A stretch of 64,000 nucleotides of DNA from an uncultured delta proteobacterium (GTDB lineage Bacteria > Desulfobacterota > Binatia > JACPRU01), in assembly GCA_963708955.1 (NCBI GenBank), contig CAVPWJ010000182.1, positions 10,684-74,683 on the forward strand, in the 5' to 3' direction. The notes under the pieces are model-generated. The model was not told the origin of the DNA and ran no database searches. It saw nothing but the letters and a program-made list of their open reading frames with translations. Of this stretch, positions 26,660 through 30,697 are shown in pieces; the stretch's first letter is position 1; each line of letters starts with the position of its first letter. Position numbers and translations under genes: made by a program.

Positions 26660-27957
26660 GGGCGCGCCCCGGCGCGCCCCCGCCGCACCGAAGCCCCGGG
26701 GCGAAGACGGACGAAGCGGCGGCGGCTCGTGCGCCGGCGCCGGCCTGGCTCAATCGAGCCGTCTGGGGCATGGTGGCGACCAGCTTCCTGTCGGACCTGG
26801 GACACGAAGCGCAGAGCACGCTCCTGCCATCGTTCATGAGCGCTCTCGGTCTTCCACCCGCCGCGCTCGGCGCCGTGGAAGGCGTGGCCGACGCCGCCTC
26901 GAGCTTCATCAAGCTTGGTGCCGGCTGGCTCTCGGACCGGATCGGCTCCCGGAAGTGGTTCGTGGTCGGCGGCTATCTCGCGACCGGCCTCGCCTCCGGA
27001 GTGATCGCGATCGCCCAGGGCCTTCCATTGGTGCTCGGCGGGAAGCTCTTCGGCTGGCTCGGCAGAGGCGTTCGCGGGCCGCTGCGGGACGCGATGCTGA
27101 CCGACTCGATTCCCGAGAATGCGCGCGGCCGTGCCTTCGGCTTTCACCGCTTCGGCGACACTCTCGGTGCCGTGCTCGGGCCGCTCGCCGCCGTGCTCCT
27201 GCTTTCCACAGTCGGCGGCTCCGACCCGCTTCAGGCAACGCGCGTGCTCATCGCATGGAGCCTCGTACCGGGTGTGCTCGCCGCTTTAGTGTTCGCGGCA
27301 TTCGTCGGCGAGCGTCGGGCCGCGCCGCGGCCGCCGCGCTCGCTCGGGCTGGCGCTGGGCGGCATGCCTGCGCTCTTTCGGCGCTACCTCGTCGGCGTCG
27401 GGCTGTTCGGAGCGGGCGACTACGCGCACACGCTGCTGATTCTCGCTGCCACCGAGCTGCTCGCTCCGCAATGGGGATCGCTCCGCGCGGCGGCGATCGG
27501 GGGCAGCCTCTACGTGCTGCACAACGTCGTCTACGCGGCCGCCGCCTACCCGGCCGGCCTGCTCGCCGACCGATTCGGATACCGCCGGATCCTGGCGTGC
27601 GGATATGCGCTCTCGGTCGCCGTGCCGCTCACGTTGATCGCTTGCTTCGTCGCGTCGTCGGCGAGCCTCGCGGCGCTGGTTGTCGCGTTCTCGCTGGCGG
27701 GCTTGGTCAACGGCGTGCAGGACACGCTCGAGGGCGCCGCCACCGCGGAGCTGGTGCCGGAGCACGATCGCGGCCTCGGTTTCGGCCTGCTCGGCGCGGT
27801 CAATGGAGTCGGCGATTTCTCGTCGAGCCTCGTGGTCGGCACGCTGTGGACCGCCCACCCGGCTCTCGGCTTCGGCTACGCGGCCGTGTGCATGGCCGGC
27901 GGCGCGGCGATCACCGCCCTCGGTGCGTCGCAGCCCGTCCGGAGCACGCCTCCGTGA
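26656..27957 (+). CDS. MFS transporter
   Basis: About 12 predicted TM segments with MFS signature loops (GWLSDRIGSRK, LADRFGYRR). The start is tentative and an internal Met at about 26770 is possible. Confidence 0.75.
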   Translation: MRARPGAPPPHRSPGAKTDEAAAARAPAPAWLNRAVWGMVATSFLSDLGHEAQSTLLPSFMSALGLPPAALGAVEGVADAASSFIKLGAGWLSDRIGSRKWFVVGGYLATGLASGVIAIAQGLPLVLGGKLFGWLGRGVRGPLRDAMLTDSIPENARGRAFGFHRFGDTLGAVLGPLAAVLLLSTVGGSDPLQATRVLIAWSLVPGVLAALVFAAFVGERRAAPRPPRSLGLALGGMPALFRRYLVGVGLFGAGDYAHTLLILAATELLAPQWGSLRAAAIGGSLYVLHNVVYAAAAYPAGLLADRFGYRRILACGYALSVAVPLTLIACFVASSASLAALVVAFSLAGLVNGVQDTLEGAATAELVPEHDRGLGFGLLGAVNGVGDFSSSLVVGTLWTAHPALGFGYAAVCMAGGAAITALGASQPVRSTPP

Positions 27958-27979
27958 AGCCGGTCGCCGCGGAGCCGCC

Positions 27980-28348
27980 TCAGATCGCGCGCCCGATCGC
28001 GAGGCCGGCGAACGAAGCCACCAGCCCCACGAACGGTCCGCCGAGGAAGTAGAGGAAGGCGAGCAGGAAGTTCCCTTGCTCGAGGAGCCTCACCGACTCG
28101 TAGGTGTATGTCGAGAACGTCGTGTAGCCGCCGCAAAAGCCGACGGCGAGGAACAGGCGCCAATTCGGTGAGAAGGTGCGCAGGGCGAGATAGGAGGTGA
28201 TGAAGCCGAGCAACAAGCTGCCGGTCACGTTGATGAGCAGCGTGCCGTACGGGAACGTCGTGCCGAGGCGCTCTGCCACGAAGCCGCCGACCCAGTAGCG
28301 CGCGTTCGATCCGATGAGCCCGCCGAGTCCCACATAGAAGTAGTCCAT
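27980..28348 (-). CDS. crcB: Fluoride ion channel CrcB/FluC
   Basis: The 122-aa four-TM protein carries the conserved GGYTTFSTY and LGTFPYGTL motifs. Confidence 0.9.
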   Translation of the reverse strand: MDYFYVGLGGLIGSNARYWVGGFVAERLGTTFPYGTLLINVTGSLLLGFITSYLALRTFSPNWRLFLAVGFCGGYTTFSTYTYESVRLLEQGNFLLAFLYFLGGPFVGLVASFAGLAIGRAI

Positions 28349-28351
28349 CGC

Positions 28352-29668
28352 TCAACGGCTTCCCTTCATCGCCTCGTCGGCGCTGCGCAGGAATCCGCCA
28401 AGCAGCTCCATCCGCCCGACGATGCCGACCAGCCGGCCATCTCGATCCACCACCGGGAAGCGCTTCACGTGACGCTCGGCGGAGACCGCCAGCGCATCGG
28501 CAAACGGCGTGTTCTCCTGCACCGTCACCGCCGGGGACGTCATGATGTCGGCGGCACGGCTGCCGCGGATACGCGCGAGGTGCCGGCGCGCTTCGCCGCC
28601 GATCGACTCGATCGGGATCTTGCTACGGAAGACCTCGACGACGCTCGAGCGAGCTTCGGGGTCGAGGCGCTGGACGAGGTCGCTATCGGTGATGACGCCG
28701 AGCGGGCGCCGGTCCGCGTCGACGACGACCACCCGCTTCGCTTCCGAGCCGACGACGAGGTCGATGACCTCATCGAGCGCGGTGTCGGCAGCGGTGGTTG
28801 GCACGTTGCGCGCCATGACGTCGCCGATCGTGTGCGGGGTCGCGCCCGGCGGCAGGCCGTGCGGCTCGAGCCGATGCTCGGGGAGGTGGACGGAGGCCAT
28901 CGTCTTCAGCACGTCGATGCGGCCGAGCACGCCGGCCAGCCGTCCGTCCTCGCCGACCACCGGCAGGCGCTTGAGTCCGCGCTCCACCATGCGGTGAGCC
29001 GCCTCGGCGAGCGGCGCGCTCGCGACGATCGTCACGGCGGGCACCTTCATCACCTCGCCGACCTTTCGCTGGCTGCTGCGCAGCCGCGCGAGCATCTGCT
29101 CGACGACCGCTCCGCCGACGGCGCGCGGGATCGACAGCGTGAGGCTCACGTCGCCGGCATCGAGGAGATCGGTGTCGCCGACCGTCCCGAGCACGCGCCG
29201 GTCGGCGTCGATGACCGGCAGCGCCGTATAGTCCTTGTCGATGAGGATCTCGATCACCCGCGACACCAGCGTGTCCGGCGTGACCGTCTCGACCTTCTCG
29301 GTCATCACGTCTCGGACCGCGAGCTCGGGAAGCCCCTGGCGCAGGATCGGCGTGTACTTGAGGACGCCGATCTCCTCGACGGTCATCAGTCCCGAGCCGA
29401 TCATCTCCTTCAGCTTCGGCAGATAGCGCGCGATGCGGTCGGCGCGATCGACCACGGTAATGACCAGCGGCAGATCGCTCGACAGGCGAAGGATCGCCGC
29501 GGTCTTGATCCGGCTCGATGCTCCGAAGCCGGCGATGCCGCGCACCACGGTCGCGCCGGCGCAGCCCTCGGCCTTCAGATATTCAAGCACCGCCGCATAC
29601 ACCGACTGGTGGTGCCAGGTGTCCGACTCGCCGACGTAGATCATCAACCGCTTAGTCTCAGGGATCAT
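28352..29668 (-). CDS. DUF190 domain fused to four CBS domains (fluoride-responsive operon protein)
   Basis: The N-terminal 100 aa (MIYVGESDTWHHQSVYAAVLEYLKAEGCAGATVVRGIAGFG) is DUF190, a fold commonly encoded next to crcB. Four CBS repeats follow (VRDVMT..., VGEVMK..., IGDVMA..., AADIMT...). The start is taken at 29668 with SD GGGGAAAGGG. The upstream ATG at 29695 lies inside the riboswitch terminator. Confidence 0.8.
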   Translation of the reverse strand: MIPETKRLMIYVGESDTWHHQSVYAAVLEYLKAEGCAGATVVRGIAGFGASSRIKTAAILRLSSDLPLVITVVDRADRIARYLPKLKEMIGSGLMTVEEIGVLKYTPILRQGLPELAVRDVMTEKVETVTPDTLVSRVIEILIDKDYTALPVIDADRRVLGTVGDTDLLDAGDVSLTLSIPRAVGGAVVEQMLARLRSSQRKVGEVMKVPAVTIVASAPLAEAAHRMVERGLKRLPVVGEDGRLAGVLGRIDVLKTMASVHLPEHRLEPHGLPPGATPHTIGDVMARNVPTTAADTALDEVIDLVVGSEAKRVVVVDADRRPLGVITDSDLVQRLDPEARSSVVEVFRSKIPIESIGGEARRHLARIRGSRAADIMTSPAVTVQENTPFADALAVSAERHVKRFPVVDRDGRLVGIVGRMELLGGFLRSADEAMKGSR

Positions 29669-29689
29669 GGCCACGCCCTTTCCCCGCAA

Positions 29690-29780
29690 AAACACGAAAC
29701 CCCCACCAGCCTTCTGGTAGGGGCCATCAGTCCAAGCTGCCGGGACGGTTCAATGAGTGAACCCCATCACCCGCGGGACC
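29690..29780 (-). promoter_or_regulatory. Fluoride riboswitch (crcB RNA motif) with an overlapping intrinsic-terminator expression platform
   Basis: The minus-strand RNA GGGUGAUGGGGUUCACUCAUUGAACCGUCCCGGCAGCUUGGACUGAUGGCCCCUACCAG reproduces P1 (GGGUGA/UCACUC), the loop GAUGGnGUUC, the P3 stem and the 3' UGAUGGCCCCUACCAG element, whose CCCC can pair with the loop GGGG as a pseudoknot. This matches the B. cereus and T. petrophila crcB aptamers. Downstream, CUACCAG-AAGG-CUGGUGG forms a 7-bp hairpin followed by GGGUUUCGUGUUUUUG, a terminator that shares the aptamer 3' strand. This is a classic fluoride ON-switch. Confidence 0.8.
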
Positions 29781-29878
29781 AAGTAGCGTGAAACGTGCTC
29801 GGGCTCAAGCAACCCTGCAACCCATCCACTCGCCCGGAAACCCAGCCCCGACTATACTGCCATCGTGAGGACTGACGC

Positions 29879-30697
29879 ATGACGAAGCCCGAGACCCTGC
29901 GGGCTCTCTTCCGGGCGCTCACCGACGAGATCACGTCGGAGGCCGAGGCGTTTGCCGAACGCGTGGCGCGCGAGCAATTCTACGTCGCCTGCGTCGGTCA
30001 GCACAAGCGAGGCAAGTCGACGCTCTTGAACGCGCTGGTCGGCGGGAAGGTCCTGCCGATGGGCGTGGTGCCGGTGACGACAGTCCCGACGGTCGTTCGC
30101 TACGGCCAGCGCCGCTCCGCGCTGCGAGCGGTGGAGAAGGCCGCCGCCGGCTACCTCGAGCGGCTCCTCGTCACCAACGCCTCGCGCATCGCCGGCGACT
30201 TCAACGAGCGGATCCTCGAGAGTCAGCGCCAGCTCGAGTCCGAGGTGCGCTCGTCGATCCGCAGCGCTCGGTTGTCCGCCACCCGCGCTCTCGATCGCGC
30301 CCGGTCGAAGCGCGCCTCCGCCGAGTGGAAGGGCTCGCGCCCGCGCCCCGCGGTGCTGGCTAGAGAGCGACGCCCCGCCTCGCTCGGCATTCGTTCACGG
30401 AATGCGCGCCGGCGCACTCGCACGACCGTTGGCGGACGAGATGTCGCCGCCCGTCTCGCCGGTGCTGCGATTGAAGACGCCGCGAGGGCCTATCGCTGGC
30501 TCCTCGATCCGGGCTACGGGCCGCGACGAATCGTCGTCGCCGGAGACTCGGCAGGCGGCGGCCTCACACTGCCCACCTTGCTCGACCTGAGGGAGGCGGG
30601 CGACCCCGAGCTGTTCCACGTCTGGCATGCCTACGCTCCCATGCTCGACGAAGGGCAGAAGGCGGTGGACGACATCGGTGCCTACAGGGTGTCCTGA
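29879..30697 (+). pseudogene. Mosaic gene remnant: dynamin-like GTPase N-terminal fragment fused in frame to an esterase/lipase (HSL-family) core fragment
   Basis: Residues 30-75 carry a P-loop, [16 protein letters not shown], and a [12 protein letters not shown] block like bacterial dynamin-like proteins, but the G2/G3 (DxxG)/G4 motifs are absent. Residues 190-250 ([42 protein letters not shown]) match the region around the nucleophile elbow GDSAGG of hormone-sensitive-lipase-family esterases, but the HGGG box and the catalytic Asp/His are absent. Confidence 0.45.

What the first reader, a model, noticed from the sequence alone, without database searches (positions are those of the whole stretch)
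27980..29780. Fluoride riboswitch controlling a DUF190-4xCBS fusion gene and crcB
The minus-strand leader reproduces every conserved element of the crcB motif: the P1 stem, the GAUGGnGUUC loop, P3, and the 3' UGAUGGCCCCUACCAG with pseudoknot potential. The aptamer 3' strand doubles as the 5' arm of a 7-bp hairpin followed by a U-tract, a textbook transcriptional ON switch. The first gene is not crcB itself but a fusion of DUF190 to four CBS domains. DUF190 is a small domain usually found as a stand-alone gene next to crcB; its fusion to a CBS tetrad suggests a ligand-gated regulator of fluoride tolerance that appears uncharacterised. The true start codon (29668) is fixed by the riboswitch geometry: the track's upstream ATG at 29695 lies in the terminator U-tract.
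Basis: partly seen in the sequence, partly recalled or inferred. Interest (0 to 1): 0.55.

Follow-up and report, generated by a model that had tools for sequence, protein, structure and literature searches.

The report
Fluoride riboswitch operon: DUF190-CBS fusion, crcB
A genuine fluoride-sensing RNA switch sits in front of a two-gene operon for a fluoride export channel and an uncharacterised, PII-like sensor protein; the switch is ordinary, while the partner protein belongs to a widespread family that nobody has studied.

Summary
Rfam's fluoride riboswitch model (RF01734) matches window 29711-29780 (-) over its full length at 40.0 bits (threshold 34, E 1.3e-7). It is the only Rfam hit in the window.

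All six nucleotides of the aptamer's 3' pseudoknot strand lie in the 5' arm of an 11-12 bp hairpin (-21 kcal/mol). A U-rich tract follows, which gives the classic transcriptional ON design.

The operon behind it is a 438-aa DUF190 + 4xCBS protein (ATG 29668), then crcB 3 nt later.

In 71 related aptamers, P1, P3 and the pseudoknot covary (94% of cells paired, 9 pairs with double changes, 0/500 shuffles).

The fusion is not rare:
- 638 clusters at 90% identity.
- 337 places in species-representative genomes (Binatia, Methylomirabilota, Acidobacteriota, Chloroflexota).
- crcB lies directly downstream in 48 of 58 loci.
- A fluoride riboswitch lies directly upstream in 31 of 59.

I found no functional study of DUF190.

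Verdict: a new member of a known riboswitch and operon type. The protein's role is inferred, probably nucleotide-sensing regulation of fluoride or ion export. Interest is moderate to low.

The parts
29711..29780 (-). Fluoride riboswitch aptamer (crcB motif)
   Evidence: RF01734 at 40.0 bits against GA 34, E 1.3e-7, full model. Own CM R1 gives 49.5 bits.
29768..29771 (-). P1 5' strand (GGUG)
   Evidence: Pairs with 29756-29759 (CACU; closing G-U). P1 covaries UA/CG in the related aptamers.
29760..29765 (-). Pseudoknot 5' strand (GGGGUU) in the P1 loop
   Evidence: Pairs with 29720-29725. This helix is 99.5% paired in 67 distinct aptamers, and 3 pairs have double changes.
29756..29759 (-). P1 3' strand (CACU)
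29743..29746 (-). P3 5' strand (GUCC)
   Evidence: Pairs with 29730-29733 (GGAC). All 4 P3 pairs show double changes in the family.
29730..29733 (-). P3 3' strand (GGAC)
29720..29725 (-). Pseudoknot 3' strand (GGCCCC), shared with the terminator 5' arm
   Evidence: One A-to-G change relative to the consensus (GAUGGC rather than GAUGAC) gives a U-G wobble.
29698..29725 (-). Terminator hairpin: 5' arm 29714-29725, loop AAGG 29710-29713, 3' arm 29698-29709
   Evidence: Terminator scan finds 12 pairs, 7 of them G-C. RNAfold gives -21.1 kcal/mol. Present in the MFE and centroid folds.
29688..29697 (-). U-rich tract (UCGUGUUUUU). It contains the GTG at 29693-29695 that an ORF caller can mistake for the start.
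29676..29680 (-). Likely Shine-Dalgarno (AAGGG), 7 nt before the ATG
   Evidence: Read from the sequence. Inference.
28352..29668 (-). DUF190-4xCBS fusion gene, 438 aa, start ATG 29668, stop TGA 28352-28354
   Evidence: Pfam PF02641 and PF00571 x4. Identical 438-aa protein P0001 in public data. Homologue N-termini agree.
29366..29653 (-). DUF190 (PII-like) domain, residues 6-101
   Evidence: PF02641 at E 1.5e-35. PDB relatives are 2DCL PH1503 (1e-24) and 1O51 TM0021 (1e-11), both 'hypothetical'. The AF2 model shows a beta-alpha-beta-beta-alpha-beta order with a low-confidence loop at 44-64.
28373..29326 (-). Tetra-CBS module, residues about 115-432 (CBS1 ~117-170, CBS2 ~203-257, CBS3 ~283-335, CBS4 ~370-424)
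   Evidence: PF00571, four stretches. Foldseek matches MJ1225, SSO3205 and AMPK gamma.
27980..28348 (-). crcB (Fluc fluoride channel), 122 aa, starting 3 nt after the fusion's stop codon
   Evidence: PF02537 at E 1.4e-28. TIGR00494 at 103.3 bits against a cut-off of 80.45.

Best explanation
This is a fluoride-inducible two-gene operon on the minus strand, controlled by a transcriptional ON riboswitch.

Without fluoride, the 3' strand of the aptamer (GGCCCCUACCAG, 29725-29714) pairs with 29709-29698. That forms a stable intrinsic terminator, and RNA polymerase stops in the U-rich tract (29697-29688), before the ATG at 29668.

With fluoride, the Mg-fluoride complex locks the pseudoknot between GGGGUU (29765-29760) and GGCCCC (29725-29720). 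The terminator then lacks its 5' arm. Transcription runs on into the DUF190-4xCBS gene and the tightly linked crcB.

CrcB (Fluc) exports fluoride.

The role of the fusion protein is inferred. I take it to be a cytoplasmic regulatory partner. Its PII-like DUF190 domain would contact a target, as GlnK contacts AmtB. Its AMPK-gamma-like tetra-CBS module would sense adenine nucleotides or a similar ligand. Together they would tune fluoride or ion export, or the fluoride stress response, to the cell's energy state.

Shown here: the aptamer, the shared strand, the gene content, and the conserved synteny. Inferred: fluoride response, termination, ligand and target.
For: RNA:
- RF01734 hit above threshold.
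- Terminator overlaps all six pseudoknot nucleotides and dominates the ligand-free fold.
- In 67 distinct related aptamers, 94.3% of cells are paired against 86.3% in shuffles. Nine pairs have changes on both sides (98 cells). 0 of 500 shuffles reach this, and slid controls give 37-62%.
- A gapless scan finds a terminator sharing the pseudoknot strand in at least 41 of 73 related leaders. The strand varies in a compensated way (CCCCUAC/GUAGGGG, CUCCUGC/GCGGGAG, CUCCUGAC/AUCAGGAG).

Operon:
- The two genes are 3 nt apart.
- In 63 fusion loci, crcB lies directly downstream in 48 of 58 with room, plus 2 with crcB directly upstream.
- A riboswitch lies within 320 nt upstream in 31 of 59, plus 2 where it sits ahead of an intervening Na+/H+ exchanger gene.
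- The gap from fusion stop to crcB start is mostly -4 to +31 nt.

Protein:
- DUF190 is homologous to PH1503 and TM0021.
- It has a weak P-II Pfam match.
- The tetra-CBS module matches MJ1225, SSO3205 (AMP-bound) and AMPK gamma by fold.
- The closest relatives of this CBS module (35-41% identity) are fused to Usp or to SulP-STAS anion transporters.
- One Usp-CBS4 gene lies immediately upstream of a fluoride riboswitch plus Na+/H+ exchanger.
- uspA is fluoride-induced 120-fold in a riboswitch operon (PMC5533749).
- A genome paper calls DUF190 a GlnK-like 'possible modulator of transport' (PMC3543383).
- flJ of fluorinase gene clusters in actinomycetes encodes a DUF190 protein (PMC9173684).
Against: - Nothing here measures fluoride binding or termination.
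- The window's aptamer scores near the bottom of its group (40 bits; other fusion-gene leaders score 40-60). It has a G-U closing pair in P1 and a U-G wobble in the pseudoknot.
- The U-tract is interrupted by CGUG.
- No sigma-70-like promoter was found upstream.
- About half of the fusion genes elsewhere have no riboswitch directly upstream. The protein is therefore not strictly tied to riboswitch control.
- For the protein's role there is only guilt by association and fold resemblance.
- The AF2 model is mediocre (pLDDT 69, pTM 0.49) and says nothing about partners or ligands.
- Fluc channels have no known regulator (my own knowledge).
Confidence: 0.8

Rival explanations
1. The riboswitch and crcB are as described, but the DUF190-CBS protein does not act on the channel. 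It is a general stress or energy sensor, or a nucleotide or Mg-fluoride-nucleotide binding buffer. It would be co-induced with other fluoride-regulon members and act on metabolism, for example on fluoride-sensitive phosphoryl-transfer enzymes.
For: - 8 of 58 fusion loci with room have no crcB on either side, though several of these are followed by a riboswitch plus a Na+/H+ exchanger or hyc-like gene (L004, L054, L063).
- The same CBS module is fused to Usp, a general stress protein.
- The nearest structural relatives of the tetra-CBS module include AMPK gamma and ribosome-binding CBS proteins.
Against: - Adjacency to crcB is by far the most consistent feature, both for the fusion (50 of 58 loci) and for stand-alone DUF190 (14 of 14).
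- The intergenic distances are very short.
Confidence: 0.3
2. Control is not, or not only, by intrinsic termination. The switch would act on translation initiation or through Rho, with the hairpin serving mainly as the alternative fold.
For: - The U-tract is interrupted (UUUCGUGUUUUU) in a G+C-rich genome.
- The minimum-energy fold pairs the leader just 5' of the aptamer (29790-29773) with the Shine-Dalgarno region (29686-29669).
- Related riboswitches in front of Na+/H+ exchanger genes have no terminator and sit right against the ribosome-binding site.
Against: - The hairpin plus T-run architecture is conserved in most orthologous leaders with compensated changes.
- The long-range pairing has no support beyond one fold, whose z-score is only -1.67.
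Confidence: 0.12
3. The aptamer is a decaying, no longer functional copy, and the operon is expressed constitutively.
For: - The score is only 6 bits above the gathering threshold.
- Two positions are weakened to wobble pairs.
- Many related fusion genes lack a riboswitch, and L002 shows what looks like a riboswitch remnant.
Against: - Every helix and every near-invariant nucleotide of the model is present.
- Both changes keep pairing.
- The terminator is intact and strong.
Confidence: 0.06

Closest known systems
Bacillus cereus crcB fluoride riboswitch (transcriptional ON switch; RF01734)
   Same: - Same aptamer family, with P1, P3 and a pseudoknot between the P1 loop and the 3' tail.
- The 3' pseudoknot strand is shared with an intrinsic terminator, so ligand binding gives read-through.
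- It controls a crcB-containing operon.
   Different: - The first gene is DUF190-4xCBS rather than crcB.
- Two pairs are weakened to wobbles.
- The U-tract is interrupted.
- Nothing has been tested experimentally here.
Stand-alone DUF190 / UPF0166 proteins (PH1503, PDB 2DCL; TM0021, PDB 1O51) encoded next to crcB
   Same: - Homologous domain (E 1e-24 and 1e-11).
- Same conserved G-x-x-GATV-x-RG-x-x-GFG region.
- Same genomic partner, crcB.
   Different: - The stand-alone genes follow crcB (14 of 14 loci), whereas the fusion precedes it.
- The fusion carries a 330-residue tetra-CBS module.
- Both are functionally uncharacterised.
GlnK/PII with the AmtB ammonium channel
   Same: A small PII-fold protein is encoded next to, and co-expressed with, a channel. 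It is a nucleotide-sensing signal protein with a flexible T-loop-like segment (low-confidence residues 44-64 in the model).
   Different: - Only a weak sequence link to P-II (E 0.0094, below Pfam's threshold).
- No evidence of trimer formation, of a ligand, or of channel plugging.
- The partner is an anion channel.
AMPK gamma subunit and archaeal tetra-CBS proteins (MJ1225, SSO3205)
   Same: Four tandem CBS domains forming two Bateman modules. Foldseek gives probability 1.0 and target-normalised TM 0.55-0.77.
   Different: - Sequence identity is only 14-23%.
- Ligand binding is untested.
- This family has conserved insertions (for example GEARRHL at residues about 355-363) that were predicted with low confidence.
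Usp-4xCBS and SulP-STAS-4xCBS proteins
   Same: They share the specific tetra-CBS module (35-41% identity over about 310 residues). One Usp-CBS4 gene lies directly upstream of a fluoride riboswitch plus Na+/H+ exchanger.
   Different: The N-terminal partner domain differs. Only one context was examined.

Membership tests
Fluoride riboswitch (Rfam RF01734, crcB motif) | Covariance-model score at or above the curated gathering score | tested here: met
   40.0 bits against 34, E 1.3e-7, model positions 1-64 of 64.
Fluoride riboswitch (Rfam RF01734, crcB motif) | P1 and P3 helices supported by covariation | tested here: met
   P3 has 4 of 4 pairs with double changes and is 95.9% paired. P1 shows a UA/CG swap; it is only 85% paired because 20 rows are shifted by one base in the alignment.
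Fluoride riboswitch (Rfam RF01734, crcB motif) | Pseudoknot between the P1 loop (GGnGUU) and the 3' tail | tested here: met
   Six pairs, 99.5% paired, 3 of them with double changes (GGGG/CCCC, GGAG/CUCC, GGCG/CGCC, GAGG/CCUC). The window has GGGGUU/GGCCCC with one U-G wobble.
Fluoride riboswitch (Rfam RF01734, crcB motif) | Located 5' of fluoride-related genes on the same strand | tested here: met
   The aptamer ends 43 nt before the ATG of the operon that contains crcB.
Fluoride riboswitch (Rfam RF01734, crcB motif) | Binds fluoride (with Mg2+) and changes gene expression | not testable with these tools
   Needs in-line probing, transcription assays or a reporter.
Intrinsic (Rho-independent) terminator | G+C-rich hairpin immediately followed by a U-run | tested here: met
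   12-pair stem with 7 G-C pairs, tail TCGTGTTTTT, -21.1 kcal/mol. The U-run is interrupted. Across the whole region the scan finds 1 site, and shuffles give 0.9, so the count alone is not significant. The overlap with the aptamer and the conservation are what count.
CrcB / Fluc fluoride channel | Match to the family models above curated cut-offs | tested here: met
   PF02537 at 99.6 bits against 32.9. TIGR00494 at 103.3 bits against 80.45.
CrcB / Fluc fluoride channel | Conserved TM3 motif (TTFSTF, the 'Phe box') | tested here: inconclusive
   The window has TTFSTY. Among neighbouring crcB genes of fusion loci there are 33 TTFSTF, 3 TTFSTY and 2 TTFSSY. The effect of Tyr at this position is unknown here.
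CrcB / Fluc fluoride channel | Fluoride export activity | not testable with these tools
   -
DUF190 (PF02641, UPF0166, COG1993) | Match to the Pfam model above its gathering score | tested here: met
   121.7 bits against 23.4, covering 96 of 97 profile positions.
PII superfamily (GlnB/GlnK-like signal proteins) | Sequence membership in Pfam P-II | tested here: not met
   16.7 bits against a cut-off of 25, E 0.0094. This shows resemblance, not membership.
PII superfamily (GlnB/GlnK-like signal proteins) | Trimer with nucleotide sites at the subunit interfaces and a T-loop that contacts targets | not testable with these tools
   Only a monomer model is available. Residues 44-64 have low confidence although they are highly conserved.
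Tetra-CBS (two Bateman modules), AMPK-gamma-like | Four CBS domains in tandem | tested here: met
   PF00571 with 4 stretches, 165.8 bits.
Tetra-CBS (two Bateman modules), AMPK-gamma-like | Fold similarity to solved tetra-CBS proteins | tested here: met
   9znf_4, MJ1225 (3lfz, 3kh5), 3ddj and AMPK gamma chains, E 1e-21 to 1e-13, target-normalised TM 0.55-0.77. The model is only of moderate quality.
Tetra-CBS (two Bateman modules), AMPK-gamma-like | Binds adenosine-containing ligands | not testable with these tools
   G-h-h-x-D-x-D motifs are conserved in CBS1 and CBS3 (G161, D165, D167; G324, D330). This is suggestive only.

The most novel reading that the evidence does not exclude
The DUF190-4xCBS protein is a dedicated, nucleotide-sensing gatekeeper of the Fluc (CrcB) fluoride channel, a GlnK/AmtB-like pair for an anion channel. 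Alternatively it is a protein-level sensor of Mg-fluoride-nucleotide complexes. Either would be the first known protein regulator of Fluc, which to my knowledge is regarded as constitutively open. It would also assign a function to the whole DUF190 family, including flJ of fluorinase clusters.
Probability: 0.2. Interest if true: 0.7.

Novelty: new member of a known kind. Interest (0 to 1): 0.35.

Why it matters
The riboswitch adds nothing new in kind.

The value lies in the protein. DUF190 is one of the most faithful genomic companions of the fluoride channel, yet I found no functional study of it.

This fusion family attaches DUF190 to a recognisable ligand-sensing module. The closest relatives of that module are fused to Usp, a member of the fluoride regulon, and to anion transporters.

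That gives a concrete, testable hypothesis for what DUF190 does, and for whether Fluc channels or the fluoride response are regulated at the protein level. This is relevant to fluoride tolerance in organofluorine degradation and biosynthesis.

The annotation point is practical. The correct start is ATG 29668, not the GTG inside the terminator.

Tried and rejected
- The original fluoride riboswitch paper (Baker et al. 2012) could not be read by PMC id or PubMed id. Its gene-association list is therefore cited only through PMC11139923 and PMC5533749.
- Literature searches for DUF190 with fluoride, COG1993, UPF0166, 'PII-like' with crcB, and 'fluoride riboswitch' with 'CBS domain' gave no functional study.
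- The promoter scan found no sigma-70-like site in 27700-30100, so the promoter remains unassigned.
- The MAFFT alignment, and then the CM alignment, kept a one-base register shift in P1 for 20 aptamers with a 9-nt loop (TTCCACC). I accepted the resulting undercount rather than edit the alignment.
- The weakest CM hits (L059, L024:1298, L066, L069) were discarded as likely chance.
- The AF2 model (pLDDT 69, pTM 0.49) was too weak for inter-domain or ligand-site conclusions.
- P0184, a stand-alone tetra-CBS relative, sits in an unrelated context and gave no lead.
- I considered that the fusion might be an assembly or frameshift artefact. I rejected this because hundreds of independent homologues share the architecture and length.
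- I considered a second crcB or DUF190 elsewhere in the window. None was found by iterative HMM search of all ORFs.
Full report

A scan of the whole 64-kb window against all 4227 Rfam families returns exactly one match. It is RF01734 (Fluoride), 29711-29780 on the minus strand, at 40.0 bits against a gathering score of 34. The E-value is 1.3e-7 and the model is covered end to end.

Read from the sequence:
- P1 is GGUG (29771-29768) with CACU (29759-29756).
- The P1 loop carries AUGGGGUU.
- P3 is GUCC (29746-29743) with GGAC (29733-29730).
- The 3' tail is CUGAUGGCCCCUAC.

Two positions differ from the consensus, and both keep pairing: a G-U closing pair in P1, and GAUGGC instead of GAUGAC.

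The terminator scan finds one site. Its stem spans 29725..29698 with 12 pairs (7 G-C), the loop is AAGG, and the tail is TCGTGTTTTT. RNAfold gives -21.1 kcal/mol for it. It is the core of both the minimum-energy and the centroid folds of the leader.

The 'ATG at 29695' is in fact GTG.

**2. The genes**

From ATG 29668 the ORF encodes 438 residues. DUF190 (PF02641) covers residues 6-101 (E 1.5e-35) and there are four CBS stretches (E 2.5e-49).

The start is supported in three ways:
- An AAGGG lies 7 nt upstream.
- The N-termini of 21 homologues agree.
- An identical 438-aa protein is present in public data (P0001). Its contig shows the same gene order.

Three nucleotides after the stop codon, crcB begins (27980-28348, 122 aa). 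It matches PF02537 at E 1.4e-28 and the TIGR00494 equivalog at 103 bits against a cut-off of 80.

The operon is bounded by a divergent ORF at 29879 and a convergent MFS gene. No second crcB or DUF190 is in the window.

**3. Related loci**

The fusion protein has 638 cluster representatives at E <= 1e-10 among the candidates scored. All of the top 120 have PF02641 plus PF00571 and are 426-461 aa long.

A library clustered at 50% identity holds 206 representatives at E <= 1e-30. Full-length relatives go down to about 25% identity.

A scan of one genome per species found 337 encoding places. I kept 78 loci. They come from:
- Binatia and Binataceae, including many MAGs labelled 'delta proteobacterium'.
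- Methylomirabilota.
- Acidobacteriota.
- Chloroflexota.

I mapped DUF190, CBS and CrcB by iterative HMM search. Riboswitches came from Rfam at gathering threshold and from a family-specific covariance model.

Among the 63 fusion loci:
- crcB lies directly downstream in 48 of 58 with enough DNA. Two Chloroflexota loci have it directly upstream.
- A fluoride riboswitch lies within 320 nt upstream in 31 of 59. In the two closest relatives with one (L003, L048) the riboswitch precedes a Na+/H+ exchanger gene that precedes the fusion.
- The gap from fusion stop to crcB start is mostly -4 to +31 nt.

Stand-alone DUF190 genes (L066-L079) all follow crcB directly, 14 of 14.

**4. Covariation and expression platform**

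On 71 aptamers (67 distinct) I tested P1, P3 and a six-pair pseudoknot:
- 94.3% of cells form standard pairs, against 86.3% in shuffles.
- Nine pairs have changes on both sides (98 cells).
- 0 of 500 shuffles reach any of the five measures.
- Sliding the partners by 1-3 columns drops pairing to 37-62%.

The pseudoknot covaries cleanly: GGGG/CCCC, GGAG/CUCC, GGCG/CGCC and GAGG/CCUC.

The alignment was fitted to P1 and P3, so those counts lean towards the structure. The pseudoknot was not in the model, so its counts are independent of the fit.

In the window, all six 3' pseudoknot nucleotides (29725-29720) lie inside the terminator's 5' arm (29725-29714). A gapless scan finds the same overlap plus a T-run in at least 41 of 73 leaders. 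Several more have bulges or longer loops. The shared strand changes in a compensated way.

This is the architecture described for the B. cereus crcB switch (PMC8752731).

**5. What the fusion protein may do**

I found no functional study of DUF190. The solved relatives, PH1503 (2DCL) and TM0021 (1O51), are 'hypothetical'.

Scattered remarks exist in the literature:
- flJ of fluorinase gene clusters in actinomycetes encodes a DUF190 protein (PMC9173684).

The AF2 model is moderate (pLDDT 69, pTM 0.49). The highly conserved RGIxGFG...I segment (residues 44-64) is predicted with low confidence, as a flexible loop would be.

By fold, the tetra-CBS part resembles several proteins:
- MJ1225.
- The AMP-bound SSO3205.
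- AMPK gamma.
- Archaeal ribosome-associated CBS proteins.

The representative search gave a new lead. The closest relatives of this particular CBS module (35-41% identity over about 310 residues) are fused to Usp or to SulP-STAS anion transporters.

One Usp-CBS4 gene lies immediately upstream of a fluoride riboswitch (RF01734, 41.5 bits) plus a Na+/H+ exchanger gene. uspA is induced 120-fold by fluoride in a riboswitch-controlled operon in E. cloacae (PMC5533749).

One metagenomic contig shows crcB, then a 76-aa DUF190 ORF, then a 346-aa CBS4 ORF. This is a split or frameshifted version.

Together this favours a regulatory, ligand-sensing accessory of fluoride or ion export. I put the channel-regulator reading ahead of a general stress-sensor reading because adjacency to crcB is the dominant signal. 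Neither reading has been tested.

**6. Context of the regulon**

The related loci are dense with fluoride riboswitches, up to four in 7 kb. These sit in front of genes for:
- Na+/H+ exchangers.
- Inorganic pyrophosphatase.
- A hyc-like NADHdh-family membrane subunit.
- A YkoP-domain protein.
- A 108-aa protein with no Pfam match.

Exchangers, pyrophosphatase and formate hydrogenlyase are known common members of the fluoride regulon (PMC11139923). The same review notes that only about 15% of Flucs are riboswitch-controlled. That fits the roughly half of fusion loci without a riboswitch directly upstream.

**7. Verdict**

The riboswitch is a new member of a well-known class with a textbook mechanism.

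The fusion protein belongs to a large family that databases already annotate by domain but whose function nobody has tested. Interest is moderate to low for the RNA. It is somewhat higher for the protein hypothesis, which is concrete and testable but unproven.

Noticed in passing
L009, L010/L060, L020, L026, L027, L055 (whole loci): Related Binataceae loci carry four fluoride riboswitches within about 7 kb, on both strands. They precede pyrophosphatase, a 108-aa unknown, the DUF190-CBS/crcB pair and a hyc-like NADHdh subunit or a Na+/H+ exchanger. These look like dense 'fluoride islands'.
   Followed up: partly
L024:2834-2985 and the same spacer in L008, L009, L013, L019, L020, L026, L027, L032, L050, L055, L057, L061, L065: In leaders with a ~150-nt spacer, a second conserved hairpin plus T-run (GGGCUCURCC-GAAA-GGUACAGGGUCC-UUUUUU) follows the riboswitch terminator. 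RNAalifold pairs the first terminator's 3' arm (GGUAGGGG) with the second hairpin's 5' arm. This suggests a relay in which one aptamer controls two tandem terminators. It is not present in the window.
   Followed up: partly
L027:1286-1356(-), L055:1278-1346(-), L009:1303-1372(-), L020:1909-1979(-), L026:1281-1349(-): A conserved 108-111 aa protein with no Pfam match (MEYLELVTTALRLINAVRREIGEPPLE...) sits behind its own fluoride riboswitch. It is an unannotated candidate member of the fluoride regulon.
   Followed up: partly
P0188, P0189, P0202, P0239, P0248 (Usp + 4xCBS); P0200, P0258 (SulP-STAS + 4xCBS); L080:1242-4130: The closest relatives of this tetra-CBS module are fused to Usp or to SulP anion transporters. 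The Usp-CBS4 gene in L080 is followed by a fluoride riboswitch (2740-2817, 41.5 bits) and a Na+/H+ exchanger gene.
   Followed up: partly
P0247, P0270, P0272: Tandem DUF190-DUF190 proteins (241-265 aa) exist. This is another architecture of the domain.
   Followed up: no
window 29879-30697 (+): The divergent 272-aa ORF combines an N-terminal Dynamin_N/GTPase fragment with a C-terminal Abhydrolase_3 fragment. It looks like two gene remnants joined, by a frameshift, a pseudogene or an assembly join. The same ORF is called on an independent Logan contig (L001).
   Followed up: no
window 27980-28348 (-), CrcB residues about 75-80: The window's CrcB has TTFSTY where most neighbours have TTFSTF, so the second Phe of the 'Phe box' is Tyr. 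This is seen in 3 of 47 crcB genes next to fusion genes.
   Followed up: partly
window 29773-29790 with 29669-29686 (-): The minimum-energy fold pairs the leader just 5' of the aptamer with the Shine-Dalgarno region. This might add translational control or might be chance in G+C-rich sequence (z-score -1.67).
   Followed up: no
L002:2726-2760: The closest relative's upstream region contains GUGAUGAAGUCCGCCGGAAACCGCG, which looks like a decayed fluoride aptamer fragment. An ORF that I judged Usp-like from its C-terminal sequence (not checked against Pfam) ends just before the fusion gene.
   Followed up: no
metagenome contig of P0193 (no DNA available): The contig shows crcB (128 aa), then DUF190 (76 aa), then tetra-CBS (346 aa) as separate calls. 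This is either a natural split form or a frameshifted fusion.
   Followed up: no
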